A stretch of DNA of 64,000 bases, taken from the NCBI GenBank assembly GCA_964397195.1, contig CAYNGY010000001.1, positions 376,326-440,325 on the forward strand. Direction: 5' to 3'. Position numbers and translations under genes: made by a program. The DNA is from an uncultured Gammaproteobacteria bacterium. Its GTDB lineage: Bacteria; Patescibacteriota; Patescibacteriia; SBBC01; CAIJZX01. Of the stretch, positions 12,397-46,253 are shown piece by piece (the stretch's first letter is position 1; every line of letters begins with the position of its first letter). Below the pieces are notes generated by a model, which saw only the letters and a list, made by a program, of their open reading frames with translations, ran no database searches and had not been told where the DNA came from.

Positions 12397-12404
12397 ACAC
12401 GGGC

Positions 12405-21307: not shown

Positions 21308-22332
21308 GAGGCGGTAAAAGGTTGCATGGCTAATCCTAACGCGGTTGTATAGGTAAAGGCAATATCATGAACAATTGTCGGATCGGATGACATTTGCTGG
21401 ATAATCCATGACGGTTGGACGATAACTTTTTTGTCTAAACGCGCGCCAAGCTCATGGTCAATAGCGCGAATCAGCGCGCCGGACCCATTGAGAAGAATCG
21501 TTGAAATTTCCGGCTCATTTGGGAAGTGTTCCTGATAATATGATTCGACACCGCGGACCTTCTCTGCAAGCAAATCGAGCTGTGGACTGAGAATTCGTGC
21601 GAGCAGTCCTTTTCCGCGCTCAGGATCGAGTCCAAACATCTCTTTCGCCTTCTGGGCCTGGTCGGTTGAGATGCGGAGGGCGTCGGCAATGTACTGATTT
21701 AAATCTTTCCCAGAATACCGAAGCGTCGTCGAAAACTCAACCACGCCGTCGCTGACGAGGATTAAAGATGCTCTCGTTCGGCCAAGATCTAGGACAATAT
21801 GCGCGCCAGTGCTGTCAGGTGCCAGCATCGCTCGGGCGATGGCAATCGATTCGATTTCCATGCTGACAATCTCGATTCCGGCAGAAGTGAGTGTTTCGAG
21901 ATATTGCGTGACAATGGTCTTCGGTGCGCCGCCAAACAGGATCCGTGTACCGACCTGCTTTGGACTGGCGGGGAGTTTTCGCCAATCAAACGTGACGTCA
22001 GACCAGGCGTAGGGAAGGTGTGGCGTTACCGCCTCTTGAATGGCCGCATCATTTACGGCGGTATCAGGGGGTAAGGTCACAACCTTAATAAAACTGTGCC
22101 GCTCTGGTAGGGTAACTATGGCCTGTTTGCCACGTGGTTTAGCGGCGGTCACGAGTTGTTCGAGAATGTCGCGCACCACGTCACGTTTTATAAAATCACC
22201 GTCGACGATGACGCCCACTGGTACGGGTATTTCACCGCGGACCGGTACGCGGTACCCCTTGTGGTGCCGTTCGAGGGTGACCAAGCGGATCACGGAATCG
22301 CTAATGTCGAGGCCGAATGGATGCATTGCCAT
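21304..22332 (-). CDS. pilM: Type IV pilus assembly ATPase-like protein PilM (actin fold)
   Basis: It has FGLDISDSVIRLV, and GIEIVSMEIESIAIARAM is typical of PilM. Confidence 0.8.
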   Translation of the reverse strand: MAMHPFGLDISDSVIRLVTLERHHKGYRVPVRGEIPVPVGVIVDGDFIKRDVVRDILEQLVTAAKPRGKQAIVTLPERHSFIKVVTLPPDTAVNDAAIQEAVTPHLPYAWSDVTFDWRKLPASPKQVGTRILFGGAPKTIVTQYLETLTSAGIEIVSMEIESIAIARAMLAPDSTGAHIVLDLGRTRASLILVSDGVVEFSTTLRYSGKDLNQYIADALRISTDQAQKAKEMFGLDPERGKGLLARILSPQLDLLAEKVRGVESYYQEHFPNEPEISTILLNGSGALIRAIDHELGARLDKKVIVQPSWIIQQMSSDPTIVHDIAFTYTTALGLAMQPFTAS

Positions 22333-22335
22333 GTA

Positions 22336-23550
22336 TTATACCGCGCTAGAAAGATTATAAATTGGAAGCATAACCGACAAAGCGAAAATGGCCACGGCAA
22401 CCCCAAGGACGAGGAGAATCACCGGCTCGATGATGGCCGAGAGGTTCGTCATGGTCTGGTCAACCTCTTCCTCAAAAAAAGAGGCGAGTTGCCCCGAAAC
22501 TTCGTCAAGCGTACCGCTTTCCTCGCCGACGCTCACCATTTGTTGAACGAGTGGTGGGTAGAGCGACGGGTATTTTTCGAGAACTTTCGCGATTGACTGC
22601 CCGCCGCGCAAGGCGCCGGACGACGCTTCCATCGCTAAGCGGTAGTGAGCACTTCCCAGCGTTCGCCCGATAATTTGAAACGATTCAATAATCGGGATAT
22701 CCGTCGCCAGCATCGAGCTGAGGTTACGGGTAAACCGGGCCAAGTTAATCTTCTTGACGATTTTTCCGGCGATCGGCATCCGGAGTAACACAGCGTCGTA
22801 CACGAGAATGCCGCGACGGGTCTTGCCGATGACAATGTAGGCCACCACCACCACAATAACGCCGATGATGACCAGGAGCCACTGGGATGTCAGGAAACGA
22901 CTAGCACCGATCAGGACTCGTGTCGGGAGCGGCAGGGTGACATTATTTTCCTCGAACACTTTAATTAACTGTGGCATCACGAAAACCATCACCGCGACCG
23001 CCGCACCGATCATGGCGATGATGATGACAATTGGGTAAATCATGGCGCCACGAACCTTGCCGACCAACTGATGATCCTTTTTCATTTGAATCGTCAGGCC
23101 ATGTAAGACATCATCAAGTTTCCCGCTGACTTCACCGGCGGCGATCATATTCACAAACAATTCCGAGAACACACGGGGGTGTTTTTTTAGGGCCACTGAG
23201 AAGGTGGTGCCACTTTCAACATCATTCTGAAGTTCGAGAATAACGCGACGGAAGTAATGGTGCGTCGTTTGGAGGGCCAGGGTGCCCATGGCGCGGCTAA
23301 TCGAAAAGCCGCTCCGTAACATGACGCCGAGATTTTGGGTAAAGAAAATCTTTTGCTCGGTTGGGACGCCTTGCCATGACTCGAATCGGTCGTTAAAAGA
23401 AACTTTTTGTGAGTTCGTTGCGGCGGCCGAGATGAATTGATATCCGCGTTGGGTGAGTGAGGCCTGCAGGCTCGCCGTTGAGTCGGACACTTCCTGGCCA
23501 TGAAGCTTCCGGCCGTGTTCATCGCGAACGTAGTAGGTAAAGATAGGCAT
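22336..23550 (-). CDS. pilC: Type IV pilus inner-membrane platform protein PilC (GspF family)
   Basis: It has two T2SSF repeats and 3 TM segments. It lies directly downstream of pilB. Confidence 0.85.
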   Translation of the reverse strand: MPIFTYYVRDEHGRKLHGQEVSDSTASLQASLTQRGYQFISAAATNSQKVSFNDRFESWQGVPTEQKIFFTQNLGVMLRSGFSISRAMGTLALQTTHHYFRRVILELQNDVESGTTFSVALKKHPRVFSELFVNMIAAGEVSGKLDDVLHGLTIQMKKDHQLVGKVRGAMIYPIVIIIAMIGAAVAVMVFVMPQLIKVFEENNVTLPLPTRVLIGASRFLTSQWLLVIIGVIVVVVAYIVIGKTRRGILVYDAVLLRMPIAGKIVKKINLARFTRNLSSMLATDIPIIESFQIIGRTLGSAHYRLAMEASSGALRGGQSIAKVLEKYPSLYPPLVQQMVSVGEESGTLDEVSGQLASFFEEEVDQTMTNLSAIIEPVILLVLGVAVAIFALSVMLPIYNLSSAV

Positions 23551-23551
23551 C

Positions 23552-25276
23552 TTATTCCTTGGTGACGCGAAGGATCTCCTCGATGGTTGTGAGTCCAGAT
23601 TTCGCTTTTAAAATCCCGTCCTGGAGCATGGTCATCATCCCGTGCTCAATCGCGTACTGTCGGAGGTCGTCGGCATTACGATTCTCGAGAATAATTCGGG
23701 CCACGTCATCGTTCATCCCAAGCGTCTCGTAAATACCAATTCGGCCTTTGTATCCTTCCTGGTTACATTGGCTGCAACCGCGACCGCGGAAGAAGAGAAG
23801 ATCCTGGACCTTCTGTCCTTTGGCGATGGCGCCGTGCTTTTCGAGGGTACGGAGGAGGTACTCAACTTGGATTTGTTTCTCTAATTCAAGGATGGCCCGT
23901 GAACTAAGGGTAAAGCTCTCGATACAATGCTGACAGATCTTTCGGACTAACCGTTGAGCGATGATCAGGTTCGTTGTTGAGGCAATCAGGAAAGCCGGTA
24001 CTTTCATTTCGGTTAAACGGGGGAGGACGGTAACCGCATCATTCGTGTGGATGGTTGAGAGAACCAGGTGGCCAGTTAAGGCGGCATGGGCCGCAATTTC
24101 CGCGGTTTCTTCGTCGCGAATTTCACCGACCATAATGATATTTGGATCCTGACGGAGCAGTGAACGGAGCCCAGCGGCGAAGGTCATACCAATTTTTGGG
24201 TTGACCTGTGTCTGGTTTACACCCGGCATCCGATACTCGATTGGATCCTCGATGGTCGAAACATTGACCTTTGGCGTATTGAGAATGTTGAGCACCGTGT
24301 AGAGGGTCGTGGTTTTTCCGGATCCAGTCGGGCCGCTGACGAAAATCATGCCGTGCGGTTTAGCAATATTTCGTTTCATGTCCTCGAGCGCTTCGGGTTG
24401 GAGTCCAAGCTGTTCGAGAGTGAGGACTTGCGCTGATTCATTCAGTAAGCGCAGGACAATCTTTTCGCCATCATAGACCGGCAGGATACTCACTCGGAAG
24501 GCGACCGCAAATTCATCGGTTTTGACCTTAAAGCGGCCGTCCTGTGGTAGGCGGTGCTCATCAATTTTGAGGTTCGAAAGGATTTTAATGCGCGCCACCA
24601 CCCCAGGGTGTACCTTTTTTGGTAACTTCATGGCTTGCTTTAGCACGCCGTCAATCCGGTACCGGACGATGCTATCAGTTTCGGACGGCTCGATATGAAT
24701 GTCGGAGGCGCTTTCGAAAACCGCATATTCAAGGAGCGAGTCGACCAATTGCACAACCGGAACATCTTGGGCGAGCTGTTGCAGGTCTTCTTTTGAAGCA
24801 TCTGTCGCATCGCCTTTTTGGGTGATGGTCTTAATGTCCGCGCGGAGTCCTTTTCGATACAGGCCGAGAACGTGCTGGATGCTCGAGGGCGTGGTGAGAT
24901 GGATAACCGCATGCAGGCCGGTCTTTTTTTCCGCGAAGTCGATTATTTCAAGATCGTCAGGATCAAGGACGGCAAGCTTAATCTCGTGGTCTGTTTTTTC
25001 GAATGGGACGATATGGTGGGCCTGAATCAGTTGTTCCGGGAGAAGCGTAAAGATATCCCGGCGGAGATTCCGGCCGTTCAGGTCAATAAACGGCAATTTC
25101 ATGCCGTTCGCTAGCGCTTCATACAAGACCGATTCACTGACGATATTCTCACCCAAAAGCACCTGCGTTAGGGGAACGCCTCGGTTTTTTGCGGTTTGAA
25201 TTGCCGTATCGAGCTTCTCAGCTGGTACCAGATTCGTCTCGTGGAGAATTCGCTCAATAACGCGTTGAATGGCCAT
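23552..25276 (-). CDS. pilB: Type IV pilus assembly ATPase PilB (GspE family)
   Basis: It has the Walker A motif GPTGSGKTTT and the GspE motifs. The C-terminus has a tetracysteine (CQHC...CSQC). Confidence 0.9.
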   Translation of the reverse strand: MAIQRVIERILHETNLVPAEKLDTAIQTAKNRGVPLTQVLLGENIVSESVLYEALANGMKLPFIDLNGRNLRRDIFTLLPEQLIQAHHIVPFEKTDHEIKLAVLDPDDLEIIDFAEKKTGLHAVIHLTTPSSIQHVLGLYRKGLRADIKTITQKGDATDASKEDLQQLAQDVPVVQLVDSLLEYAVFESASDIHIEPSETDSIVRYRIDGVLKQAMKLPKKVHPGVVARIKILSNLKIDEHRLPQDGRFKVKTDEFAVAFRVSILPVYDGEKIVLRLLNESAQVLTLEQLGLQPEALEDMKRNIAKPHGMIFVSGPTGSGKTTTLYTVLNILNTPKVNVSTIEDPIEYRMPGVNQTQVNPKIGMTFAAGLRSLLRQDPNIIMVGEIRDEETAEIAAHAALTGHLVLSTIHTNDAVTVLPRLTEMKVPAFLIASTTNLIIAQRLVRKICQHCIESFTLSSRAILELEKQIQVEYLLRTLEKHGAIAKGQKVQDLLFFRGRGCSQCNQEGYKGRIGIYETLGMNDDVARIILENRNADDLRQYAIEHGMMTMLQDGILKAKSGLTTIEEILRVTKE

Positions 25277-25301
25277 GTTTGATGTTTACAATTGCCGTTA
25301 G

Positions 25302-25330
25302 ATTATAGCATAACGGCTAGGCAATTTCAA
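25302..25330 (-). promoter_or_regulatory. Sigma70-like promoter for pilB operon (minus strand)
   Basis: The minus strand reads TTGAAA, a 17-nt spacer, then TATAAT. The -35 element overlaps the stop of the upstream GT-C gene. Confidence 0.6.
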
Positions 25331-27069
25331 CGAAATCGGTATTCGTAGATGGTCGTTCCGACGACGGTAGTCGGCGTCTCATTCCATAACCAATGGAAAG
25401 GATTATTCGTGTCGTATAGCGCGCCGGCACTGATATAGTAGGTGCCGACCGGTCGCTCGCCATGAGCATATTCCTCATCAGTCATCACATAGCCCGCCTC
25501 GTCAAAGAAGAGTTCCTTACGATTTCCGGGAATTGCGAGGCCGTAGGTAGAAATATGGTGCTGCGTCAAATACGAACGCAATCGCCACGTATCCTGATTC
25601 CAATCGAGGTTTGAGTCTTGCAGAATGGTGTGTCCGTGTGCGGTTCCTCCGGCTGCGGCGTTAAAATACCCGAGGGTATGCGGCCACGCCAAGAGGGCGG
25701 TCAGTCCAATCCCAACGACAACGACCGCGGCGATTGGCATTTGCCATGCTCGACGCAACCGCGCCCCAGCCGCGCCAATCCAGAGTGGAATAAAAACGAT
25801 GACCGGCATGACATGTCGTACGCCGATATTAATATGGCCGGTCATACTCCAGAGGAGGAACATGGCGGGGGGGAGGACGAGAATCCAAAAGCCGGAGGCC
25901 GGATTCCAGCGCCATCGAGTGCGACGTAGCAAGAGTCCCAGCGAGAGGAGAAGTCCGCCCCAGGTGAGGAGGGGGAGCTTAACTGCCATCGCGACCGGGA
26001 AGTAGTACCACCAGCCATGGACACGAATTTCACCGAGCAAAAAGGCAGTGTGGCCCCAAAAATTATGATTTGATGTTTCGATCAGACCTTGAAAATAGGA
26101 ATATGCCGGAATGGGGAGATGTCGAGCCTTTTGAATCACATCGCCAAGCATAGTCTGCGGCTTGGCATGATTCACAAGCCACGCGGTCAGTGGCGGTTCA
26201 TCGCCGGCGTTTGGCGCAGTCAGGGCCGCGTCAAGCGCTCGCCGGATGCGGGCGTCACTATCAAATCGTTTCACCTCAAACCCGTAGATGACCCATGTGA
26301 CGAGCGGAACTATGACCAGTAGACTGAGCATCATTCGGCCGGCCCATCGCCAGTCAAGTCGATGCTGATTCGGGAATAGACGGATGAACAGAATCGCTGG
26401 AACAATCAGCCAAAGAATAATTGCCGAGAATTTCGAAACTTGCGTCAGTGCAAAAACCGTACTGACCAGCATCGTCTGACGCCAGGTTGGAGCCTGGAGC
26501 CATCGCTCGAAAAGGACCAAGGTCGCCACAAAGCCGAGAGTAACTGCCATGTCGGTGGTGACCAGGTGGCCGTGTCCAAGCACCGTGGGATCAAAGGAAA
26601 AAAGCCCGGCGGCCATCACCCCGCTCCATCCGCCCCAGCGCTTTGTTGCCCACCAGCCTATCAACCAGCACAGCGTCACGGTGACGGCGATGGGGAAGAG
26701 TCGCCCCAGGAAAAGGATAAATCGGGCCGTGTTCGGGTCACTCCGAGACTCGTACAACAGGGTACTTCCAAGCCCCCATTGCTCCACCTGTTGCCAACTA
26801 TCCGAACGCGTCGAAAAATTGAGGTTTTTTACCATCAGTAACGGCGCCGCCGCCAACAATTTCAACAAGGGCGGGTGTTCCGGGTTAATCCGATGATCAT
26901 TCGTTCGCCAATACGAATACCCGGCCACGAGGTGCACGGCTTCGTCGGTCGTTTGACTATCGGACCAAGCGCCGATACACTGCCATACAGTGGCGACGGT
27001 TAACAGAGCCCACAGGGCTCGTCGCGCCCATTGTGTATGCCAGCGTTCGTCTCGACTATCCAGAAACAT
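25327..27069 (-). CDS. GT-C family glycosyltransferase (GT39 protein-O-mannosyltransferase / ArnT-like)
   Basis: It has the first-loop motif SQTTDEAVHLVAGYSYW...NPEHPPLLKLL and many TM segments. Confidence 0.7.
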   Translation of the reverse strand: MFLDSRDERWHTQWARRALWALLTVATVWQCIGAWSDSQTTDEAVHLVAGYSYWRTNDHRINPEHPPLLKLLAAAPLLMVKNLNFSTRSDSWQQVEQWGLGSTLLYESRSDPNTARFILFLGRLFPIAVTVTLCWLIGWWATKRWGGWSGVMAAGLFSFDPTVLGHGHLVTTDMAVTLGFVATLVLFERWLQAPTWRQTMLVSTVFALTQVSKFSAIILWLIVPAILFIRLFPNQHRLDWRWAGRMMLSLLVIVPLVTWVIYGFEVKRFDSDARIRRALDAALTAPNAGDEPPLTAWLVNHAKPQTMLGDVIQKARHLPIPAYSYFQGLIETSNHNFWGHTAFLLGEIRVHGWWYYFPVAMAVKLPLLTWGGLLLSLGLLLRRTRWRWNPASGFWILVLPPAMFLLWSMTGHINIGVRHVMPVIVFIPLWIGAAGARLRRAWQMPIAAVVVVGIGLTALLAWPHTLGYFNAAAGGTAHGHTILQDSNLDWNQDTWRLRSYLTQHHISTYGLAIPGNRKELFFDEAGYVMTDEEYAHGERPVGTYYISAGALYDTNNPFHWLWNETPTTVVGTTIYEYRFR

Positions 27070-27093
27070 GGTATCTTCGGATTCCGTCAGCCG

Positions 27094-27411
27094 ATGGAAT
27101 GGGTTTTAATCGGCGTGACCGGATTATTGAGTGGAGCGTTTTGGGCGACCACAGGACTGCTCGTGCAGTCGCATGGTGACCTCGCGCCGTTACACTATAC
27201 CATATACTTCGGCATTGATTTGGTCGGAAACGCCAATCGCCTGTATTTTTTACCGGCGGCGGGAACGGTGATGTGGCTGGGGCATCTTGTTGGATCACGC
27301 GCAATCGAACATGACGCCTGGCGTCGGGCGTGGCTCATTCTCGGCCTAACGTTTCAGGTTATTCTCGGCGCGATCTTAGCCGCCATCACTTTTGTCAGTT
27401 TCCAATCATGA
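27094..27411 (+). CDS. Small membrane protein upstream of mraY
   Basis: The track ORF is 27031..27411. The start is trimmed to MEWVLIG to avoid the divergent gene. Its stop TGA overlaps the mraY ATG (ATGA). Confidence 0.45.
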   Translation: MEWVLIGVTGLLSGAFWATTGLLVQSHGDLAPLHYTIYFGIDLVGNANRLYFLPAAGTVMWLGHLVGSRAIEHDAWRRAWLILGLTFQVILGAILAAITFVSFQS

Positions 27412-28451
27412 ACACGACCGCCATCGTCCAACTGCTCACCCTCGTCGTCGTCGCCGCGACGTGTGCGTTTATCGCTACGCCAATTTTGACGAAATACCTC
27501 TATAAATACAAACTCGGGAAGCAAATTCGCGACGCATCCGAAACGCCGATATTTAGTAAGCTCCATGCGCATAAGGCTGGGACACCAACGATGGGCGGGA
27601 TTCTCGTTTGGGGAACCGTCCTGGTGCTCTTGGCGGTGACCTGGGTGATGAGTCGATTTGTGACGGTTGGATTTTTTCACGAACTGAATTTTTGGTCACG
27701 AAGCGAGACGTACTTGCCGGTGGGCATGATGATTCTGGCGGCCATGGTCGGCTTGGTGGACGATATCTATAACATCCAGCGTCGTGGCGCGCATGGTGGC
27801 GGGTTACGCGTCCGGCATCGGCTCCTGCTCTTCGGAGCGATCGCCGCCATCGGGGCTTGGTGGTTTGTGACAAAACTCGATTGGACAACGCTGCATGTTC
27901 CACTCTTCGGAAATATTGATGTCGGCTGGTGGTATATCCCGATTTTCATGTTTGTGATTGTCGCGACCGGGTTCTCGGTTGATATCGCGGACGGACTCGA
28001 CGGCTTAGCGGGCGGGTTGGTTTTAGCGGCGCTGACCGCCTACGCAGGAATTGCCATTTACCAAGGCAATGTGGAGCTCGCCTCATTTATCGCGGTCTTG
28101 ATTGGCGCCCTGGCTGCGTTTCTCTGGTTTAACATTACGCCGGCTCGTTTTTTTATGGGGGATACCGGTGCGATGAGTCTCGGCGTCACCCTTGGCGTGT
28201 TAGCGATGTTGACGAATACCGCGCTCGTCCTTCCGATTATTGGGTTCCCGTTTGTCGTTGAGGCCCTCTCGGTCATCATCCAGGTCCTGTCAAAGCGCCT
28301 CAGGAAGAAAAAGATCTTCATCTCGGCTCCAATCCATCACCACCTTGAGGCGAAGGGGTGGAGCGAGCCAAAAATTGTCATGCGGTTCTGGGTGATCGCT
28401 GCTATGAGTTCATTACTCGGGCTTATCCTTGTTTTGGTCGATAAAACGTAA
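27408..28451 (+). CDS. mraY: Phospho-N-acetylmuramoyl-pentapeptide transferase
   Basis: The start is trimmed to MNTTAIVQLL. It has the MraY motifs (GTPTMGG; DDxxD-like VDDIYN; HHHLE). Confidence 0.9.
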   Translation: MNTTAIVQLLTLVVVAATCAFIATPILTKYLYKYKLGKQIRDASETPIFSKLHAHKAGTPTMGGILVWGTVLVLLAVTWVMSRFVTVGFFHELNFWSRSETYLPVGMMILAAMVGLVDDIYNIQRRGAHGGGLRVRHRLLLFGAIAAIGAWWFVTKLDWTTLHVPLFGNIDVGWWYIPIFMFVIVATGFSVDIADGLDGLAGGLVLAALTAYAGIAIYQGNVELASFIAVLIGALAAFLWFNITPARFFMGDTGAMSLGVTLGVLAMLTNTALVLPIIGFPFVVEALSVIIQVLSKRLRKKKIFISAPIHHHLEAKGWSEPKIVMRFWVIAAMSSLLGLILVLVDKT

Positions 28452-28460
28452 GTTTTCTCG

Positions 28461-28489
28461 TTGCCGAGGAGGAGGTTTCGTGGTATAAT
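28461..28489 (+). promoter_or_regulatory. Promoter with extended -10 upstream of the murD-fusion gene
   Basis: The sequence is TTGCCG, a 17-nt spacer, then TGgTATAAT (28481-28489). Confidence 0.5.
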
Positions 28490-28562
28490 TCGGACAATGC
28501 TTTATTGTACATATAGGTAAAATGGGTTGCGAGATCTGCGCATACGGATATCAGGTAAACAC

Positions 28563-31061
28563 ATGAAACAGCGCCCCGGCCTTTTCCGATTTGTTCGATA
28601 TCGAATGATGGCCGATCGTCGAACAATCGTTTTATCGTATGCAACAGAGGCCGCTGGGCAGACGGTGACGTTCAGTGAGCGCATTGTCCTGCCCTCACCA
28701 ATACCACGCGCCGTTCCACCGCGCCTCCTGCGCATCATACTGGAGTCGGTCCATTTAGCCATCGGCGTCAGTTATTACAAAGCCAGCTGCCCAGGAAAAA
28801 TCGTCCATCCGTATCACTTGACGCAAGCCCAGGCCGCATATTGGACGGATTTGTACCATCATGGCCTCGGTGAGCTATGCTATCGAAATGCTATTAACAT
28901 CAGCGCGCTTGCTGCATTCCCGGTAACTACTACTCGATCCCCGCAACCAGTTGTTTGGCCGCGCGCCCGTCGGGCTCTCGTCGGTATTGGCGGCGGGAAA
29001 GATTCGATCGTGGTCGCCGAGGAATTACGCCGGATGGGGTGGGACTTTTCGACTTTCTCGGTGGGAAATGGGCGCCACACAATTATTGATGAGGTCATGA
29101 AGGTCGTCGGCCGGCCGCGTCTGCATCTGGTACGGCAACTGGATAAAAAAGTTTTAGAACCACCACCGAGTTGGATTACCGGACATGTCCCGGTCTCGGC
29201 TATTTTTGCCTGGCTCGGCGTTCTCTGCGCCGCCGTATACGATTACCAATACTTCTTGGTCGGAAATGAGGCCAGTAGCGATAGCGGGAATGTTCGATGG
29301 CGAGGGCATGAAATTAACCACCAATGGAGCAAATCAACCGCCTTTGAGGTTGCAACGCGGTCCTATCTCCGGTCGTGGGTGACGAGCGACGTTGACTACG
29401 CGTCACCGCTGCGGTCTTTTTCCGAACTTCGGGTGATACAACTTTTTACCGAGTATAAAAAGTATTGGCATGTTTTCAGTAGCTGCAACCGACAATACGT
29501 TCAACAGAAACGGTCGACCAGTACGAGATGGTGTGGTGCGTGCCCAAAGTGCGCCTTCGTTTTCCTGGGGCTAGCGGCGTTTCTGCCGTTGTCCAAGGCG
29601 GTACGTATTATCGGACGGAACATGTTGGATGCGGAGGAGATGATTCCGCTCTACCAAGAGCTCCTTGGGTTTACCGCGGTAAAACCATTTGAATGTGTCG
29701 GGACCTTTGAGGAAACGCGAGTGGCGTTTTCCCGTCTGGCCGCGGCGCACCCACGGCTAGCGGTTATCCGAGCCTTGGCTGGACGGGTCCGGCGTCAGCA
29801 CATAGACGAAAGAAGCACGTTGCGGGCGAAACCAGCGGCGAGTACGCCCCCGCCATTCATCTTACTCGGCATGCGAGAAATAGTGATTGTGGGGTATGCC
29901 GTCGAGGGGCGAGCGACGCACGCGTGGCTTCGCCGGAACTACCCATGGATCCATCTGGCCATCGTTGACCGTCGAGATGGGCCGAAATATCTGGCCCAGC
30001 TTGATCGTTATGATTTGGCCGTAAAAACCGCCGGCATGCGCGACATCATTCCGATTGGATATACGACCGCGACGAATCTCTTCTTTGGGCATGTCACTCA
30101 GCAGGTTGTGGGCGTTACTGGCACCAAAGGAAAAAGCACCACCGCTTCGCTGATTGCTCATATTCTGAAGACCGCCGGACAGCCAACGGCGTTGCTCGGG
30201 AATATCGGGTCCCCGATGTTGGCATGGCTGGACCGCTATCATCGCCCAAGAACCGTTGTCGTGCTGGAACTCTCGAGCTTCCAACTGGCGGAACTGCGCA
30301 CCTCGCCACAGATTGCCGTGTGGCTCAATGTGTTTCCTGAGCACCTCGATGTGCATGGTAGTCTCCAAGCCTATATCGAAGCCAAGCGGCATATTTGTGC
30401 CTTTCAACGGCCACAGGATACGTTTGTCTACAACCCTCGCGATCGTCATGTGCGTGGTGCCCGGTCTCGTACCAATGGCCAGGCTATCCCATTTCCACAC
30501 ACATCGCCCGTGGCACTTGAGAAAACCCAATTACGGGGGGATCACTTTTTGGATGCGATCGGCGCCGCATCAACAGTTGGGCGGCTGCTCGGTGTCAACA
30601 AACAGGCGATCGAGCGCGCCCTGAGAACTTTTCAGCCGCTGCCACACCGGCTTCAAGTCATCGGGACCGTGGCTGGCGTTCAATACGTCGATGACGCCAT
30701 TTCAACAACACCACAGTCAACCATCGCGGCTTTGGCGGCTTTCCCGCAGACCGCCACGCTGTTTCTTGGGGGCACCGATCGCGGGTATGATTTTCGGGAA
30801 CTTGAGCGGGCCATTCACCGTTCGCGGGTGCAACAAGTGGTTCTCTTCCCCGACACCGGGAAGCGCATGCTCAAACAGACATCCGGATTACGCGTGCTAC
30901 ACACCCGTTCAATGCGGCAGGCCGTTGCATTTGCCGCCCGATACGCTCAGCCGGGGACAACCTGCCTCTTGTCGTGCGCTTCCCCGAGTTATTCACTCTG
31001 GAAGAACTTCGAGGTCAAGGGGGATGAGTTTCAACAATGCGTTAAGGCACTTTGTCCATGA
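28563..31061 (+). CDS. murD: Fusion protein: N-terminal PP-loop ATP-pyrophosphatase-like domain + UDP-N-acetylmuramoylalanine-glutamate ligase MurD
   Basis: The track ORF is 28527..31061 from a TTG start. The ATG at 28563 has a good SD (AGGT, 6 nt upstream). The N-terminal part of about 440 aa has VGIGGGKDS (SGGxDS-like PP-loop) and a CGACPKC motif. The C-terminal part starts at MREIVIVGYAVEGRA and has GVTGTKGKSTT. It is clear MurD, in the canonical dcw position between mraY and ftsW. There is no stop or frameshift between the two parts. Confidence 0.8.
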   Translation: MKQRPGLFRFVRYRMMADRRTIVLSYATEAAGQTVTFSERIVLPSPIPRAVPPRLLRIILESVHLAIGVSYYKASCPGKIVHPYHLTQAQAAYWTDLYHHGLGELCYRNAINISALAAFPVTTTRSPQPVVWPRARRALVGIGGGKDSIVVAEELRRMGWDFSTFSVGNGRHTIIDEVMKVVGRPRLHLVRQLDKKVLEPPPSWITGHVPVSAIFAWLGVLCAAVYDYQYFLVGNEASSDSGNVRWRGHEINHQWSKSTAFEVATRSYLRSWVTSDVDYASPLRSFSELRVIQLFTEYKKYWHVFSSCNRQYVQQKRSTSTRWCGACPKCAFVFLGLAAFLPLSKAVRIIGRNMLDAEEMIPLYQELLGFTAVKPFECVGTFEETRVAFSRLAAAHPRLAVIRALAGRVRRQHIDERSTLRAKPAASTPPPFILLGMREIVIVGYAVEGRATHAWLRRNYPWIHLAIVDRRDGPKYLAQLDRYDLAVKTAGMRDIIPIGYTTATNLFFGHVTQQVVGVTGTKGKSTTASLIAHILKTAGQPTALLGNIGSPMLAWLDRYHRPRTVVVLELSSFQLAELRTSPQIAVWLNVFPEHLDVHGSLQAYIEAKRHICAFQRPQDTFVYNPRDRHVRGARSRTNGQAIPFPHTSPVALEKTQLRGDHFLDAIGAASTVGRLLGVNKQAIERALRTFQPLPHRLQVIGTVAGVQYVDDAISTTPQSTIAALAAFPQTATLFLGGTDRGYDFRELERAIHRSRVQQVVLFPDTGKRMLKQTSGLRVLHTRSMRQAVAFAARYAQPGTTCLLSCASPSYSLWKNFEVKGDEFQQCVKALCP

Positions 31062-32161
31062 CCAGATCCCACCGCCAGCCGGACTACGCCCTCGCCGCCT
31101 TGATCGGCATCCTGATTCTTTTTGGGCTCGTCATGCTGGCCAGCGCCGGATCATTCATCGGCATTCAGCGATACGATGACGGCTACTACTTTGTAAAAAA
31201 GCAGGCCATCAGCTTGGTGGTCGGTCTGATTGTCGGTTTTGTGTTGTATCGAATCGACTACCAACGGTGGTGGAAATGGGCGGTACCGTTCTTCATTGCC
31301 TCGCTGGTCGGTTTGTTTATCGTCTTCCTGCCTGGCATCGGTTCTCTCTTCCTCGGTGCACGTCGTTGGATTCATATCGGCCCAGCGGTCTTCCAGCCGA
31401 GCGAAATCATGAAGTTATCACTCATCGTCTATCTCGCGGCCTGGTTTTCCCAGCGCGAGCGTCGGCTGAGTGATTTCCAGGAAGGCCTGATCCCGTTCTT
31501 GGTCACGCTCGGCAGTGTGGCTGGATTAATCATTCTCCAGCCCGACCTCGGGACGACGATGGTTATCGTCCTGGTCGGCACGGTCATGTTCTTCGTGGCC
31601 GGTGGCGCCACTCGTCATTTGGCCTCCATGGTGGTGATTGGCGTTGCCCTGCTGGCAATCATTATCGTCGTCGCGCCATATCGTGCCGACCGTTTTACGG
31701 TCTTCTTAAATCCAAACCTTGATCCGCAAGGAATCGGGTACCATATCAAGCAGTCCGCGCTCGCCATTGGCTCGGGTGGGATGTTTGGGCTCGGACTTGG
31801 TCATTCTCGGCAAAAATACAACTACTTACCAGAGCCGGCCGGGGATTCAATTTTTGCAATCATGGCTGAGGAGCTCGGCTTTATTATGGTCATCTTTTTC
31901 GTCCTCACTTGGTTGGTGGTTATTTTCCGCGGTATAGCCATTGCTCGCGGTGCCCCGGATACGTTCGGGAAATTACTGGCGACTGGGATTACCGCCTGGT
32001 TAGGGCTGCAGGCTTTTGTGAATATGGCCGCGTTGTCGGGGATAGCGCCGTTAACCGGAATCCCGTTGCCGTTCATGAGTCATGGCGGGTCGTCGCTGAT
32101 CATGAACGTCGCCGCGGTTGGTATTCTCCTCAATATTTCTACCCAATCAAAACGCGCATGA
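31052..32161 (+). CDS. ftsW: Peptidoglycan glycosyltransferase / lipid II flippase FtsW (SEDS family)
   Basis: It is a 10-TM SEDS protein in the dcw context. Confidence 0.85.
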   Translation: MSMTRSHRQPDYALAALIGILILFGLVMLASAGSFIGIQRYDDGYYFVKKQAISLVVGLIVGFVLYRIDYQRWWKWAVPFFIASLVGLFIVFLPGIGSLFLGARRWIHIGPAVFQPSEIMKLSLIVYLAAWFSQRERRLSDFQEGLIPFLVTLGSVAGLIILQPDLGTTMVIVLVGTVMFFVAGGATRHLASMVVIGVALLAIIIVVAPYRADRFTVFLNPNLDPQGIGYHIKQSALAIGSGGMFGLGLGHSRQKYNYLPEPAGDSIFAIMAEELGFIMVIFFVLTWLVVIFRGIAIARGAPDTFGKLLATGITAWLGLQAFVNMAALSGIAPLTGIPLPFMSHGGSSLIMNVAAVGILLNISTQSKRA

Positions 32162-33222
32162 ACCAGACCATTCTCTTCGCTGGCGGCGGGACCCTCGGCC
32201 CCGTCACCCCACTCCTCGCCATCAGTAGTGTGCTTCGTTCACGTCGCCCCGATTGGGAACAGATCTGGGTGGGGACACCGGACGGTCCGGAAATCCCGCT
32301 CGTTCGTCCGCGGATGACGTACCTGAGTGTTCCGGTGGTAAAATTACGGCGCTACGCGTCGCTGGAAACACTGCGCGATCTCGGAAAATTTCCCGGCGTA
32401 TTGAAACAAGCTCGGGACATCGTTCAGCGGACGAAACCATCAATTGTGGTTGGGGCGGGGGGATTTGTCAGTGTGCCGATGGGTTGGGCGGCGAAGTGGC
32501 ATCATGCCAAGCTATTGATTCATCAGCAAGACGTCGAACCCGGACTGGCGAATCGTTTGCTCGCACCGTGGGCCGACCAGATTACGACCGTCTTTGGTGC
32601 CCATCGTACATTTCCGCCAAAGAAATGTACCCAAACCGGTAATCCCGTCCGTCAGGAATTCTTGCAGGCCGATGCCGCTCGTGGGCGCAGTCAGTTTGCC
32701 ATCCCGGCTGATCGACCGATGGTGCTCGTGATTGGCGGCGGAACAGGCGCCCAAGCTCTCAATACACTCGTTGAAGCTTCGCGTCCTCGTCTCCAATCAA
32801 CGATGACCATCGTCCACCTGACCGGCGCGCATCGCGGCCATGCCGAGTGTACGGAGGACGGGTATATTCGGCGGGCATTTCTTGACGCTGAGCTTCCCCA
32901 TGTTATGGCGGCGGCGGATCTCGTTGTCACCCGCGCCGGGATGGGGACGCTGACTGAGTTGAGCGCCTTAGCCAAACCGACGATCATTATTCCGATGCCA
33001 AAAACACATCAAGAGTACAACGCCGCCGCGCTCGAGGCGTCGCGGGCCGCGGTCGTACTCTCCCAGACCGAATTAACGCCGGAAATATTTACCGAGTCTG
33101 TTCAAACCCTGATGGCAAATGCTCCCCGCCGACACGAGCTATCTGGGGCCATGGCCGCTTGGAACAAGCCCGACGCGGCCGGAACGATTGCCGGGATGAT
33201 TGAACGATTACTCCTCTCATGA
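32158..33222 (+). CDS. murG: UDP-N-acetylglucosamine--N-acetylmuramyl-(pentapeptide) pyrophosphoryl-undecaprenol N-acetylglucosamine transferase
   Basis: The start is trimmed to MNQTILFAGGGTLGPVTPLLAI. It has an ATGA overlap with ftsW. Confidence 0.9.
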   Translation: MNQTILFAGGGTLGPVTPLLAISSVLRSRRPDWEQIWVGTPDGPEIPLVRPRMTYLSVPVVKLRRYASLETLRDLGKFPGVLKQARDIVQRTKPSIVVGAGGFVSVPMGWAAKWHHAKLLIHQQDVEPGLANRLLAPWADQITTVFGAHRTFPPKKCTQTGNPVRQEFLQADAARGRSQFAIPADRPMVLVIGGGTGAQALNTLVEASRPRLQSTMTIVHLTGAHRGHAECTEDGYIRRAFLDAELPHVMAAADLVVTRAGMGTLTELSALAKPTIIIPMPKTHQEYNAAALEASRAAVVLSQTELTPEIFTESVQTLMANAPRRHELSGAMAAWNKPDAAGTIAGMIERLLLS

Positions 33223-34589
33223 CTAAAAAACATCTCTACGCGATTGGTATCGCCGGTGTCGGTGTTTCGGCCGTTGCCCGATGGTACCTCCAGAAAGGGT
33301 GGCGGGTGAGCGGCTCAGATCCGCGGCCGTCGCCGCTGGTTGATGACCTGCGTAGTCTCGGTGCTGATATCGTGCAAATTCCAATGGCGTCGCGGCTGGC
33401 TGATGTGGATCTCGTCGTCTACACGGACGACGTTCCGGTCGATCAAGTCGAACGGCAGGAGGCAACTCGTCGTGGTATTCCTGCGGCCAGTTTCGCCGAG
33501 GCGCTTGGGACCATCATGCAGGATCGTCCGGAACGACTGACCGTGGCCGGTACGAATGGAAAGAGCACCACCTCAGCATTACTCGGAATTATTGTGGCCT
33601 CGGTCGACCGCGATCCGACAGTCTTCGTCGGTAGCCGCGTGAAAGAGTTTTCCGGGAACATGCGCATCGGTCAGGGCCCACACTTTATCGCCGAGGCCGA
33701 CGAATACCGTGATCACTTTTTGAACTTTTCCCCGACAGCGGCGTTAATTACGAATGTCGAGCTGGATCATGTCGAATATTTTAAAACGGTTGAGCGTATG
33801 GAAGATAGCTACCGTCAGTTCTTGCAGAAACTTCCGCCACAGGCGCCGATCATCTACAATCAGGATGACCCCGGCGCAGTGCGTGTTTGTGCCGAATACT
33901 CGCAAGCCATCTCGTTCGGATTTAGCGATCAGGCGGACGCGCGTATTGTGGCGTACAGCTCAGCCGCCGAGCAGGAAACATTCCAAATCGCCTATGCCGG
34001 TGAAACGAGCCAGAAGTTTACTCTCCACGTTCCGGGTCGGTTTAACGTCTTGAATGCGGTTGGCGCGGTGATGATGGCGCACGCGCATGGTATCCCGATC
34101 AACGACTGCATCGCTGCCGTTGGCGCGTTTCGCGGAATTTGGCGTCGCTTCGAAGTCCTTAACCCCGGCGCGGGGACGCTCGTGATTAACGACTACGCGC
34201 ATCACCCCACCAGCGTTCGGGCCACGATTGGCGGAGCGCGTGTTTTTTACCCGCAGCGCCGGATCATCGCCGTTTTTCAGCCACATCACCGCCATCGCCT
34301 GCAAGCGCTCTTCCACGAATTTGCCACCGCCTTTGAAAGTGCTCATGAAATCATCATCACCGATGTCTATGCGGTACCGGGGCGCGAGGATGATGACCCG
34401 ACCTTACCAACGAGTCGCGACTTGGTGGCGGCGATGACTGCGTCGGGGTGGAATGTCCACTACGCACCGTCACTAACCGATGTCGCTAACACCATCGCTG
34501 CTATCGTTAAACCCGGTGATGCGATAGTACTGATGGGGGCCGGAGACATTTGGACCTTAGCGCAACCACTTATCGACGTCTATGGATAA
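33219..34589 (+). CDS. murC: UDP-N-acetylmuramate--L-alanine ligase
   Basis: It has GTNGKSTTSALL and the Mur ligase middle and C-terminal domains. Confidence 0.9.
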   Translation: MTKKHLYAIGIAGVGVSAVARWYLQKGWRVSGSDPRPSPLVDDLRSLGADIVQIPMASRLADVDLVVYTDDVPVDQVERQEATRRGIPAASFAEALGTIMQDRPERLTVAGTNGKSTTSALLGIIVASVDRDPTVFVGSRVKEFSGNMRIGQGPHFIAEADEYRDHFLNFSPTAALITNVELDHVEYFKTVERMEDSYRQFLQKLPPQAPIIYNQDDPGAVRVCAEYSQAISFGFSDQADARIVAYSSAAEQETFQIAYAGETSQKFTLHVPGRFNVLNAVGAVMMAHAHGIPINDCIAAVGAFRGIWRRFEVLNPGAGTLVINDYAHHPTSVRATIGGARVFYPQRRIIAVFQPHHRHRLQALFHEFATAFESAHEIIITDVYAVPGREDDDPTLPTSRDLVAAMTASGWNVHYAPSLTDVANTIAAIVKPGDAIVLMGAGDIWTLAQPLIDVYG

Positions 34590-35514
34590 CGATCCTTCGT
34601 GCATTGCCCGCGGCGTTCCGCTCGCGCCGCATACGACCATGAACGTCGGTGGTCCGGCCGCCTACTACGCGGCGGTCGTGGCCGATGACGAGCTCCGGGC
34701 GGTTTTAGCCTGGGCAAAAACGAACGGTCAACCGATGGTTGTTCTCGGCGGCGGAAGTAATGTCATCTTCCCAGACGCCGGATTTTCGGGGGTGGTGATT
34801 CATCCGGCCGATGAGCGGTTGGCGTGGCAGGACGAAACGCTGATTGCCGGTGCCGGAATCGACCTCGAGGTGCTCATCCAAGAAGCATTACGCCACGACC
34901 GCGGCGGGCTCTCGAGTCTGGCCGGTATTCCGGGCCACATCGGCGGCATGACAAGACGTAATGCCGGGAGCGAGCGTGGTTGGCTCGGAGAACATGTGCT
35001 CTGGGTCGAAACGATGAGTCGGGACGGGGAACTGCGTCGCTGGGATCATGACGCCTGTCGTTTTGCTGCCCACCGCAGCGTCTTCCAGTCCGGTGATGAA
35101 ATTATCATTCGTGTTGCCTTCAATCTGCCCGCAGTGACTGGTCGTGAAGAACGCGAACGGATCGAGGCTACGAAACAACTGCGCCTCGAGCATCAACCAA
35201 TCGGCGATCCGTCGGCCGGACGGATGTTCCAGAATGTGATACCGCCAGACCCGTGCCCGCCGAACCTACACTCGATGGTTGGGAAAACGAGTGGCACGAT
35301 TGCGGCCTGGAAACTAGTCGCCGCCGTCGAGCTTGGCGGCTATCAACTTGGGGGGATGAAAATTCACGATCAACACCCGAACTTTTTAGTCAATACTGGA
35401 TCGGGGACCGCGGACCAAGCCGTCCAGCTGATGAGTTTGGTGAAGATGCGCGTTCGTGATACGCTTGGGGTACAACTTCACGACGATATTCAACTGATCG
35501 GATTCAACGTATGA
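34582..35514 (+). CDS. murB: UDP-N-acetylenolpyruvoylglucosamine reductase
   Basis: It has the FAD-binding motif PLAPHTTMNVGGPAAY...VLGGGSNV. Confidence 0.85.
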   Translation: MDNDPSCIARGVPLAPHTTMNVGGPAAYYAAVVADDELRAVLAWAKTNGQPMVVLGGGSNVIFPDAGFSGVVIHPADERLAWQDETLIAGAGIDLEVLIQEALRHDRGGLSSLAGIPGHIGGMTRRNAGSERGWLGEHVLWVETMSRDGELRRWDHDACRFAAHRSVFQSGDEIIIRVAFNLPAVTGREERERIEATKQLRLEHQPIGDPSAGRMFQNVIPPDPCPPNLHSMVGKTSGTIAAWKLVAAVELGGYQLGGMKIHDQHPNFLVNTGSGTADQAVQLMSLVKMRVRDTLGVQLHDDIQLIGFNV

Positions 35515-35831
35515 ACATCACCATCTCCGCCAAAGATTTCGACCTGACGCCGTCAATTAAGACGTACGTCGAGGAAAAGATCGGGAAGCTGGCGAAATTC
35601 AGTACGCGCATTAAACGCATCGGCGTTGAACTTGATGTCGACCATTCGGCCAAAAGCGGGCTCCTTAATCGGATTGAAGTCTGGGTTTACCTGCCGGAAA
35701 AGACGCTTCAAGCCGGATTAAAAGCGGAGCAGATGCGTGAAGCAATTGATCTCGTCTATCCGAAGATGGAACGGCAAATCGTTTCGTACGAAGGAAAGCG
35801 ACGCGACAAAAAGCGCGGCGTACGCGTGTAG
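35511..35831 (+). CDS. hpf: Ribosome hibernation promoting factor (HPF/RaiA, short form)
   Basis: MNITISAKDFDLTPSIKTYVEEKIGKLAKF is the sigma54-modulation/RaiA fold signature. Confidence 0.85.
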   Translation: MNITISAKDFDLTPSIKTYVEEKIGKLAKFSTRIKRIGVELDVDHSAKSGLLNRIEVWVYLPEKTLQAGLKAEQMREAIDLVYPKMERQIVSYEGKRRDKKRGVRV

Positions 35832-35906
35832 TGACAACACGCCGGCTGATTTCAGAAGCAGGTACGCGACCAAGGTAACCTTTTAGTATACATAACGAAA
35901 CTGCCC

Positions 35907-35952
35907 CGGATCACGACTCGTAGTCCGGGGTCGCTGAAAAAGCCGTTTTTTT
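35907..35952 (+). terminator. Possible intrinsic terminator after hpf
   Basis: The hairpin is CCCCGGA-13 nt-TCCGGGG, followed by a downstream T-run (gccgttttttt). The geometry is imperfect. Confidence 0.35.
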
Positions 35953-36135
35953 GGCTAACCTACGCAAAAAAATTTTCATGATCCTGCTCGACGCCTGCTT
36001 CTCGATGCGGGCTTCGGCAAGCTTAGTTCTACCTCGAAGGGTATTCATCTCATTATTGCTCGACCCGGGTGGAGAACAGTGGCGTGCTGACAACGCCTTG
36101 ACGTCAGCCTGACCGTGACGTAGGTTCAAGCCATC

Positions 36136-46191: not shown

Positions 46192-46253
46192 GGTTGGGGC
46201 GTAGGGCTGGCCGGGCACCGATTTCGGCCGTTATTTTATTTCACCCCAGATTC

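What the first reader, a model, noticed from the sequence alone, without database searches (positions are those of the whole stretch)
28563..31061. MurD carries a 440-aa N-terminal PP-loop ATP-pyrophosphatase-like domain in frame (possible MurL-MurD2-type epimerase-ligase)
This ORF sits in the exact murD slot of the dcw cluster (mraY - X - ftsW - murG - murC - murB). It is 833 aa. The MurD ligase region begins only at about residue 445, with MREIVIVGYAVEGRA and GVTGTKGKSTT. The upstream 440 aa contain a PP-loop-like motif ALVGIGGGKDS (SGGxDS class) and a cysteine motif RWCGACPKC. The fusion is continuous. No stop or frameshift separates the two parts. PP-loop enzymes adenylate carboxylates, releasing AMP and PPi. 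That is the chemistry reported for MurL, the ATP-dependent UDP-MurNAc-L-Ala-L-Glu epimerase. MurL works with an L-Glu-specific MurD2 in organisms that lack glutamate racemase. If this is MurL fused to MurD2, the organism would make the D-Glu of its peptidoglycan on the nucleotide precursor. Alternatively the domain could amidate or otherwise modify the stem peptide.
Basis: partly seen in the sequence, partly recalled or inferred. Interest (0 to 1): 0.7.

Follow-up and report, generated by a model that had tools for sequence, protein, structure and literature searches.

The report
Fused MurL–MurD2 cell-wall enzyme
This gene in an uncultured ultra-small (CPR/Patescibacteria) bacterium most likely fuses two known enzymes, one adding ordinary L-glutamate to the cell-wall precursor and one flipping it to the D-form, and the same gene pair, fused or side by side, occurs in hundreds of CPR species, which suggests this "alternative" route is common there.

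The parts
28563..31061 (+). Whole fused murL-murD2 gene (832 codons plus TGA)
   Evidence: Continuous ORF. MurL and murD models hit the two halves. 120 full-length fused homologues.
28563..29822 (+). [quoted passage not shown]
   Evidence: NF041275 at E = 4e-94, residues 7-395. 38.5% identity to Plantactinospora MurL, with 32 of 32 invariant residues shared. AF2 pLDDT 94.9.
28563..28952 (+). N-terminal beta-sheet plus helical subdomain of MurL (residues 1-130). It lies outside the QueC-like core. Its role is inferred to be substrate binding.
28965..29582 (+). QueC-like PP-loop ATP-pyrophosphatase core (about residues 135-340)
28983..29006 (+). PP-loop motif GIGGGKDS (residues 141-148). G144, G145, K146 and S148 are invariant.
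   Evidence: Invariant columns. Aligned to SGGKDS of TtuA at E = 3.6e-4 and to SGGQDS of E. coli QueC.
29316..29336 (+). Invariant MurL signature NHQWSKS (residues 252-258)
   Evidence: Invariant in 120 fusions and in Plantactinospora MurL. It was one of the two peptide patterns used in the genome scan that confirmed 584 relatives.
29484..29552 (+). Four-cysteine cluster C308...C324-x2-C327-x2-C330, a putative QueC-type metal (Zn) site
   Evidence: All four Cys are invariant. The layout matches E. coli QueC C188...C197-x2-C200-x2-C203. Metal binding is inferred, not tested.
29682..29702 (+). Invariant KPFECVG motif with C378, a candidate catalytic acid/base or thioester residue (speculative)
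   Evidence: K374, P375, C378 and G380 are invariant in the CPR proteins and in the actinobacterial MurL.
29823..29870 (+). Ordered linker (residues 421-436, RAKPAASTPPPFILLG) joining the two enzymes
   Evidence: P429 and G436 are nearly invariant. pLDDT is above 90 in the full-length model, which has pTM 0.89.
29871..31058 (+). MurD2-type ligase half (residues 437-832): short N-domain 437-512, central ATP-binding domain, C-terminal domain
   Evidence: TIGR01087 at 257.8 bits. Pfam Mur_ligase_M and Mur_ligase_C. PDB MurD hits at E = 3e-45. K524, N547, E569, H594 and K608 are invariant.
30339..30341 (+). E593, equivalent to E. coli MurD D182 and X. oryzae MurD2 E197 (an L-Glu determinant)
   Evidence: Alignments. 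Role of the residue from PMC8788868, section 5.
30780..30782 (+). R740, equivalent to E. coli MurD K348 and MurD2 R358 (an L-Glu determinant)
   Evidence: Arg in 120 of 120 fusions. Role.
30984..30992 (+). P808-S809-Y810, equivalent to E. coli A414-S415-L416 and MurD2 P433/F435
   Evidence: Pro in 120 of 120; Tyr or Phe in 119 of 120. The same PxY is found in the Plantactinospora MurD2.
28461..28489 (+). Promoter-like site TTGCCG-17-TATAAT with a TG extension, in the 111-nt gap between mraY and this gene (possible internal promoter)
   Evidence: Consensus scan, 10 of 12 matches plus TG. The number of such sites in the region is not above chance, so this is only suggestive.
31058..31061 (+). 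ATGA overlap: the stop codon of the fusion overlaps the ATG of ftsW (translational coupling)
   Evidence: Sequence read directly.

Best explanation
The gene encodes a bifunctional enzyme that carries out two consecutive steps of the 'alternative' D-glutamate route of peptidoglycan synthesis. The C-terminal half (residues 437-832) is a MurD2-type Mur ligase. It activates UDP-MurNAc-L-Ala as an acyl phosphate (ATP to ADP + Pi) and adds L-glutamate instead of D-glutamate. The N-terminal half (residues 1-420) is MurL. Its QueC-like PP-loop core adenylates the alpha-carboxylate of that terminal L-Glu (ATP to AMP + PPi). [quoted passage not shown] Shown here: family membership of both halves, the PP-loop fold, conservation of the catalytic and specificity residues, and the prevalence and gene order of the pair. 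Inferred: the actual substrates and stereochemistry, the metal site formed by C308/C324/C327/C330, any catalytic role for C378, H208 or H253, and intermediate hand-over between the two halves. The fusion most likely arose when the stop codon was lost between abutting or overlapping murL-then-murD genes. That split arrangement is seen in other CPR lineages.
Against: No activity data exist for any CPR member. The MurL score (315 bits) is below the curated cutoff of 700, although the control explains this. About 16% of the fusions (19 of 120, not this one) have Asp at the D182 position, so L-Glu specificity may not be uniform. The specificity rules come from mutagenesis of one enzyme plus homology modelling. 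Absence of murI was tested only within 64 kb of a contig of about 477 kb. QueC-type enzymes normally pass the adenylate to a nitrogen nucleophile, so other chemistry after adenylation is conceivable. The D-Glu content of CPR peptidoglycan has not been shown here.
Confidence: 0.82

Rival explanations
1. The ligase half is an ordinary D-Glu-adding MurD. The MurL-like half uses its QueC-like adenylation chemistry for another modification of the stem peptide, such as amidating the Glu alpha-carboxylate to iso-glutamine, which is the job MurT/GatD does in Gram-positive bacteria.
For: QueC, the closest structural relative, adenylates a carboxylate and passes it to ammonia. The generic murD model is passed (257.8 bits against a cutoff of 212). 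19 of 120 fusions keep Asp at the D182 position.
Against: The domain is a specific MurL homologue, not a generic QueC. All 32 invariant residues are shared with the clade whose members were assayed as epimerases. hhalign to QueC gives only 9.6% probability. The ligase carries the MurD2 signature in full, which would be unexplained if it used D-Glu. The murD model also accepts a MurD2 from the validated clade at 292 bits, so passing it says nothing about stereochemistry. No glutaminase partner lies next to the gene.
Confidence: 0.07
2. The fusion is an artefact: two separate genes, murL and murD, were joined by a sequencing or assembly error in this MAG, as in the CPR lineages where they really are separate.
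For: 40 of 77 related loci have separate, abutting murL and murD genes. Read coverage could not be inspected.
Against: The 120 best database hits are all full-length fusions from many independent assemblies and sources. 37 species-representative genomes have the fused form. In the NJ tree the window's protein falls inside the large fused clade. The linker is conserved (P429, G436) and is predicted to be ordered. There is no long homopolymer run at the junction.
Confidence: 0.02
3. The protein is a true MurL-MurD2 fusion but redundant. The organism also has MurI and/or takes D-Glu or muropeptides from its host, so the fusion is a back-up or salvage route and not the main source of D-Glu.
For: Glutamate racemase activity has been reported for a Saccharibacteria (CPR) enzyme (a reference cited in PMC11974145). 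Only 64 kb of the genome could be searched.
Against: The gene sits in the only murD position of the dcw operon and is translationally coupled to ftsW. No other murD-like gene and no murI is in the window or in the roughly 16-kb neighbourhoods of 80 related loci. A MurD2 that is specific for L-Glu could not use free D-Glu made by MurI.
Confidence: 0.09

Closest known systems
MurL (XOO_1319) and MurD2 (XOO_1320) of Xanthomonas oryzae, with the orthologues of Micromonospora and Salinispora (Feng et al. 2017, as reviewed in PMC5808125 and PMC8788868)
   Same: The same two enzyme families. The same invariant residues in MurL. The same E/R/P/aromatic specificity signature in the ligase. The two genes are genomically linked. 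The inferred chemistry is the same: L-Glu ligation, then ATP-dependent, AMP-forming epimerisation.
   Different: Here the two enzymes form one polypeptide, MurL at the N-terminus and MurD2 at the C-terminus, joined by an ordered linker of about 16 residues. The gene sits in the murD slot of the dcw cluster. The host is a CPR/Patescibacteria bacterium, a group not listed among the known carriers. In Plantactinospora the two genes are adjacent but divergent. The ligase N-domain is shorter: about 80 residues precede the P-loop, against about 108 in E. coli.
QueC (7-cyano-7-deazaguanine synthase) and QueC-like Cap9/QatC, within the PP-loop ATP pyrophosphatases
   Different: Similar at fold level only: 14-19% identity, hhalign probability 9.6%, and no Pfam QueC hit. 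The first Ser of SGGxDS is Gly. MurL adds an N-terminal domain of about 130 residues and a C-terminal helical domain of about 90. After adenylation the outcome is epimerisation and hydrolysis, not transfer to nitrogen.
[quoted passage not shown] E. coli, PDB 1e0d/5a5f)
   Same: Three-domain Mur ligase. All ATP, Mg and carbamyl-lysine residues are conserved. The position in the dcw operon is the same.
   Different: The Glu-pocket residues D182, K348, A414 and L416 are replaced by E, R, P and Y, and K319 by Ile. It is fused to MurL.
Other fused Mur enzymes (MurE-MurF PRK11929; MurC-Ddl PRK14573)
   Same: Enzymes of the same pathway fused into one polypeptide, as indexed by NCBIfam.
   Different: Those fusions join two ligases. 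This one joins a ligase to an epimerase of an unrelated fold. NCBIfam gave no single model covering the MurL-MurD architecture in this scan.

Membership tests
[quoted passage not shown] | End-to-end sequence homology to characterised MurL | tested here: met
   NF041275 at E = 4e-94, 315 bits, residues 7-395 against profile positions 9-396 of 447. This is below the curated 700-bit cutoff, but a Micromonosporaceae MurL is too (415 bits). 38.5% identity to it.
[quoted passage not shown] | Conservation of the family's invariant residues | tested here: met
   All 32 residues invariant across 120 CPR sequences are identical in Plantactinospora MurL.
[quoted passage not shown] | Genomic linkage to a MurD2-type ligase | tested here: met
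   Fused in this window. Fused in 37 and adjacent in 40 of 77 related loci.
[quoted passage not shown] | ATP/Mg2+-dependent, unidirectional L-to-D epimerisation with AMP release | not testable with these tools
   Needs an enzyme assay. The PP-loop fold is consistent with AMP-forming adenylation.
[quoted passage not shown] | Host genome lacks glutamate racemase and D-amino-acid aminotransferase | tested here: inconclusive
   No MurI homologue among the window ORFs of 60 aa or more (best E = 0.83). None was named in the NCBIfam scans of 49 window ORFs.
MurD2 (L-Glu-adding MurD paralogue) | Mur ligase of MurD type with intact catalytic residues | tested here: met
   TIGR01087 at 257.8 bits. PDB MurD at E = 3e-45. 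The K115, N138, E157, H183 and K198 equivalents are invariant.
MurD2 (L-Glu-adding MurD paralogue) | Glu at the D182 position and Arg at the K348 position (X. oryzae E197/R358), the pair whose mutation switches stereospecificity | tested here: met
   E593 and R740. Rule taken from PMC8788868.
MurD2 (L-Glu-adding MurD paralogue) | Pro and an aromatic residue at the A414 and L416 positions (P433/F435) | tested here: met
   P808 and Y810. Tyr rather than Phe, as in the Plantactinospora MurD2.
MurD2 (L-Glu-adding MurD paralogue) | [quoted passage not shown] | not testable with these tools
   Needs an enzyme assay.
Canonical MurD (D-Glu ligase) | D-Glu pocket residues of E. coli MurD (D182, K348, A414, L416) and Lys at position 319 | tested here: not met
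   E, R, P, Y and Ile713 instead. The four solved D-Glu MurDs have D or T at 182 and A at 414.
PP-loop ATP pyrophosphatase superfamily (adenine nucleotide alpha-hydrolases) | Rossmann-like alpha/beta fold shared with QueC, TtuA, NAD synthetase, TilS and others | tested here: met
PP-loop ATP pyrophosphatase superfamily (adenine nucleotide alpha-hydrolases) | SGGxDS PP-loop motif | tested here: met
   GGGKDS, with Gly in place of the first Ser, aligned to SGGKDS of TtuA at E = 3.6e-4. G144, G145, K146 and S148 are invariant.
QueC family proper | Sequence-level membership (Pfam/HMM) | tested here: not met
   No Pfam hit on residues 1-441 at E <= 1. hhalign against E. coli QueC gives 9.6% probability, over the PP-loop region only.
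QueC family proper | Four-Cys Zn site near the C-terminus of the core | tested here: inconclusive
   The same C...CxxCxxC layout is present and invariant. Metal binding and structural superposition of the site were not examined.

The most novel reading that the evidence does not exclude
In much of the CPR/Patescibacteria radiation the MurD2/MurL route, not glutamate racemase, is the normal source of the D-Glu in peptidoglycan. These cells would then need no free D-Glu pool. [quoted passage not shown] MurL itself would be a QueC-derived, metal-containing PP-loop enzyme that epimerises through an acyl-adenylate, possibly using the invariant C378 as base or as a thioester carrier. That would supply the mechanistic framework the published reviews say is missing.
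Probability: 0.4. Interest if true: 0.65.

Novelty: new variant of a known kind. Interest (0 to 1): 0.52.

Why it matters
The MurD2/MurL pathway is presented in the literature as a curiosity of Xanthomonadales, a few Alphaproteobacteria and Micromonosporaceae, and mainly as a narrow-spectrum drug target.

These results place it in at least 584 species-level genomes, nearly all from CPR lineages. About 1,000-2,400 sequence clusters (at 50% identity) match the MurL domain. It often occurs as a single fused gene that public annotation labels as plain "MurD (D-glutamate ligase)" or "hypothetical".

This has several consequences:
- It changes how CPR cell-wall metabolism should be reconstructed. 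A missing murI need not mean dependence on the host for D-Glu.
- It flags a systematic annotation error.
- It offers a naturally fused, well-predicted protein (pLDDT 93) for solving the first MurL structure and for testing substrate hand-over between the two halves.
- Recognising MurL as a QueC-like PP-loop enzyme with a conserved four-Cys site and a fifth invariant Cys gives concrete residues to mutate. The published reviews describe the enzyme's mechanism as unclear.

Tried and rejected
- **Local Pfam-A** on residues 1-441 found no family, even at E <= 1. The database hits carry PF26298 and PF26299, which the local copy lacks, so I could not read what those families are.
- **PDB sequence search** with the whole protein found nothing for the N-terminal half. 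No MurL structure has been solved.
- **hhalign** of the MurL profile against E. coli QueC was weak (probability 9.6%) and covered only the PP-loop region. The link to QueC therefore rests on fold.
- **The afdb50 fold library** was unavailable.
- **Source organism:** The look-up of encoding contigs and the listing of cluster members gave no accession or organism for the source contig. Rfam found no rRNA or other RNA in the window. The lineage within CPR is unresolved.
- **X. oryzae MurL and MurD2 sequences** could not be retrieved. A Micromonosporaceae pair (locus L078) served as the reference instead.
- **Peñalver et al. 2024**, on a CPR glutamate racemase, is not held in the library.
- **Literature:** seven searches found only two reviews on MurL/MurD2. 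None mentions a fusion, CPR or a PP-loop fold. One search was swamped by "Constant-Murley" hits.
- **Assembly artefact** was considered and rejected. See the rival explanations.
- **A tRNA-modifying PP-loop enzyme (TtuA or MnmA type)** was considered and rejected. Those are only fold-level relatives, and a genuine mnmA is present elsewhere in the window at 54380..55459.
Full report
**1. The observation**

Translating window 28563..31061 (+) gives 832 codons and a stop, with no interruption. The longest ORF in that frame begins at a TTG at 28527.

The neighbours are as described:
- mraY, 27330..28451
- this ORF
- ftsW, 31052..32161
- murG, ending at 33222
- murC, 33219..34589
- murB, 34582..35514

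The stop codon overlaps an in-frame ATG of ftsW in an ATGA. A gap of 111 nt separates mraY from the ATG at 28563. It holds the best promoter-like match of the region, TTGCCG-17-TGgTATAAT, although the number of such matches there is not above chance.

NCBI's own gene call (P0001, 818 aa) starts at Met15. Homologues conserve the upstream F-x-F-x-x-Y segment, so 28563 is the better start.

**2. What the two halves are**

The local Pfam copy sees only Mur_ligase_M (residues 518-650) and Mur_ligase_C (695-804), and nothing in residues 1-441.

NCBIfam gives two hits:
[quoted passage not shown] E = 4e-94, 315.6 bits, profile positions 9-396 of 447.
- Residues 502-828 match TIGR01087 (murD) at 257.8 bits, above its cutoff of 212.

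The MurL score is below that model's cutoff of 700, so I ran a control. The genome scan returned a Plantactinospora locus, L078. Plantactinospora belongs to the Micromonosporaceae, the family in which Micromonospora and Salinispora MurD2/MurL were confirmed in vitro (PMC8788868).
- Its MurL also scores below the cutoff (415 bits).
- Its MurD2 passes the generic murD model (292 bits).

So the MurL cutoff is tuned to Xanthomonadales, and the murD model cannot tell MurD from MurD2.

The window's MurL half is 38.5% identical to the Plantactinospora MurL. All 32 residues that are invariant across 120 CPR sequences are identical in it.

**3. Is the ligase a MurD2?**

The review of the X. oryzae work (PMC8788868 section 5) names four pocket residues that differ between MurD2 and E. 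coli MurD. The E197D/R358K double mutant switches MurD2 completely to D-Glu. K319T lets E. coli MurD accept L-Glu.

| E. coli MurD position | X. oryzae MurD2 | Window protein | 120 fusions |
|---|---|---|---|
| D182 | E197 | E593 | Glu 101, Asp 19 |
| K348 | R358 | R740 | Arg 120 |
| A414 | P433 | P808 | Pro 120 |
| L416 | F435 | Y810 | Tyr 117, Phe 2, His 1 |
| K319 | not given | I713 | never Lys |

The window residues come from the alignment to E. coli MurD. The catalytic residues K115, N138, E157, H183 and K198 are invariant across the 120 sequences (119 database fusions plus the window's own).

The Plantactinospora MurD2 reads KEHKLRPY at the eight positions tested. The window reads KEHKIRPY and E. 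coli KDHKKKAL. Four solved D-Glu MurDs have D or T at position 182 and A at 414. The ligase half therefore meets every sequence criterion available for MurD2 and fails those for canonical MurD.

**4. The PP-loop claim**

An AlphaFold2 model of residues 1-436, built on a 120-sequence alignment, is very confident: pLDDT 94.9, pTM 0.94.

- Then nitrile synthetase ArtA, TtuA, LarE, ThiI, NcsA, NAD synthetases, TilS, argininosuccinate synthetase, GMP synthase and asparagine synthetase. From general knowledge, this is essentially the membership list of the PP-loop ATP pyrophosphatases.

Foldseek agrees: QueC at E = 1.3e-5, then TtuA and Cap9.

At sequence level, a MurL profile aligns LVGIGGGKDSIV onto the PP-loop LVAVSGGKDSAV of TtuA at E = 3.6e-4.

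The four invariant cysteines, C308...C324-x2-C327-x2-C330, copy the layout C188...C197-x2-C200-x2-C203 of E. coli QueC. I recall that this cluster forms the Zn site of QueC. Metal binding was not tested here.

Direct profile comparison to QueC is weak: hhalign probability 9.6%. The domain is therefore a fold-level relative of QueC, not a member of that family.

The core spans roughly residues 135-340. It is flanked by an N-terminal beta/helical domain (residues 1-130) and a C-terminal helical domain.

A PP-loop core explains the published observation that MurL needs ATP and Mg2+ and releases AMP. The same reviews state that it "lacks known conserved domains" (PMC5808125, PMC8788868).

**5. Distribution and origin of the fusion**

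- **Protein database.** All 120 best hits (of 593 at E <= 1e-10) are proteins of 781-881 aa. 119 of them are 41-59% identical to the query and cover 96-100% of it; the other is the source record's own copy (P0001). Where named, they come from Patescibacteria, Paceibacterota, Parcubacteria, Uhrbacteria, Staskawiczbacteria or Gracilibacteria. They are labelled "MurD", "Mur ligase family protein" or "hypothetical". One JGI record is labelled as the epimerase.
- **The 80 loci kept.** 37 are fused. 40 have separate murL and murD genes; in 39 of these murL is followed at once by murD on the same strand. Plantactinospora has the pair adjacent but divergent.
- **Tree.** A neighbour-joining tree without bootstrap, rooted on Plantactinospora, places the split loci (Peribacteria, Roizmanbacteria, Woesebacteria and others) basally. 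The fusions form one large clade, in which the window branches early, and one small clade. Fusion by loss of the intervening stop codon, probably more than once, is the simplest reading.
- **Family size.** An exhaustive search of 1.84 billion cluster representatives with the MurL half finds 2,420 at E <= 1e-3 and 1,082 at E <= 1e-30. About 18 of the best 150 are fusion-length.
- **Whole-protein model.** The 832-residue model has pLDDT 93.0 and pTM 0.89. The linker is ordered, with pLDDT above 90. This suggests a fixed arrangement of the two enzymes. I could not measure the distance between the active sites.

**6. Genome context and the murI question**

A phmmer search with E. coli MurI against every window ORF of 60 aa or more found nothing (best E = 0.83). 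HMMs built from the CPR alignment found no second MurL or MurD in the window.

NCBIfam scans of 49 window ORFs found no racemase, no D-amino-acid aminotransferase, and no murE, murF or ddl.

The window is only 64 kb of a contig of about 477 kb, so absence from the whole genome remains untested. A glutamate racemase from a Saccharibacteria (CPR) genome has been shown to be active (a reference cited in PMC11974145), so CPR lineages are not uniform in this respect.

**7. Mechanism, with shown and inferred steps marked**

Shown:
- Both halves belong to the MurL and MurD2 families.
- The catalytic and specificity residues are intact.
- The MurL core has a PP-loop fold.
- The gene replaces murD in the dcw operon.

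Inferred from the published enzymology of the orthologues:
- MurD2 ligates L-Glu (ATP to ADP + Pi).
- MurL adenylates the alpha-carboxylate of that Glu (ATP to AMP + PPi), inverts C-alpha and hydrolyses the adenylate. [quoted passage not shown]

Speculative:
- The four-Cys site binds Zn, as in QueC.
- The invariant C378 (KPFECVG), H208 or H253 acts in proton exchange or in forming a thioester.
- The fused architecture channels the L,L-dipeptide intermediate.

**8. Comparison with what is known, and novelty**

The pathway and both enzyme families have been known since 2017, and automated resources already recognise the MurL domain: an NCBIfam model, newer Pfam families on the database hits, and one JGI annotation.

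Seven full-text searches found no description of three things:
- the fused MurL-MurD2 architecture;
- its prevalence in CPR bacteria. The reviews list only Xanthomonadales, some Alphaproteobacteria and rare actinobacteria, plus low-similarity hits in cyanobacteria, a fungus and an amoeba;
- the QueC-like PP-loop fold of MurL.

The library does not hold most subscription-journal papers, including the original 2017 and 2019 research papers, so prior mention cannot be excluded.

I class this as a new variant of a known kind.

Noticed in passing
window 43644..45281 (+): The SecD protein (545 aa) also matches PpiC/PrsA/SurA-type peptidyl-prolyl isomerase models at about residues 135-228. This suggests a parvulin-type PPIase domain inserted in the periplasmic part of SecD.
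   Followed up: no
window 46161..47459 (+): A 432-aa protein whose only recognisable part is a sigma-70 region-4-like stretch at residues 51-145. The next two ORFs, 47456..48814 and 48817..50553, have no confident family.
   Followed up: no
window 1..12655 (- strand): A glycan-modification cluster: GT4 and GT2 glycosyltransferases, two LegB-like NAD-dependent 4,6-dehydratases, a sugar-1-phosphate nucleotidyltransferase, and the WbuX (6146..7285, itself a PP-loop amidotransferase) / WbuZ / HisH acetamidino-sugar trio. This is elaborate surface-sugar chemistry for a small CPR genome.
   Followed up: no
window 28461..28489 (+): The best promoter-like site of the dcw region (TTGCCG-17-TATAAT with a TG extension, 10 of 12 matches) lies in the 111-nt gap between mraY and the fused gene. 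The number of such sites in the region is not above chance.
   Followed up: partly
window 20247..36000: The dcw block here contains only mraY, murL-murD2, ftsW, murG, murC and murB. There is no murE, murF, ddl or ftsQAZ in the window. On the opposite strand it is flanked by type IV pilus genes (pilM 21304..22332, pilC 22336..23550, pilB 23552..25276) and an unassigned 580-aa ORF at 25327..27069.
   Followed up: partly
window 28563..28604: The public (NCBI) gene call for this protein (P0001, 818 aa) starts at Met15. It omits 14 N-terminal residues that are conserved in homologues.
   Followed up: yes
loci L015, L030, L031, L038, L040, L042, L045, L047, L048: MAGs labelled Gammaproteobacteria, Weeksellaceae or Bacillota carry CPR-type murL-murD genes that nest among the CPR sequences in the tree. 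The taxonomic labels or the binning of these records are probably unreliable.
   Followed up: no
database fusions P0002-P0120: 19 of 120 fusions, P0007 among them, have Asp rather than Glu at the E. coli D182 position while keeping Arg, Pro and Tyr. Their Glu stereospecificity may differ or be relaxed.
   Followed up: partly
locus L078, 6570..9320 (Plantactinospora): In this actinobacterium murD2 (minus strand, 6570..7955) and murL (plus strand, from about 7956) are adjacent but transcribed divergently. In the split CPR loci the two genes are co-directional.
   Followed up: partly
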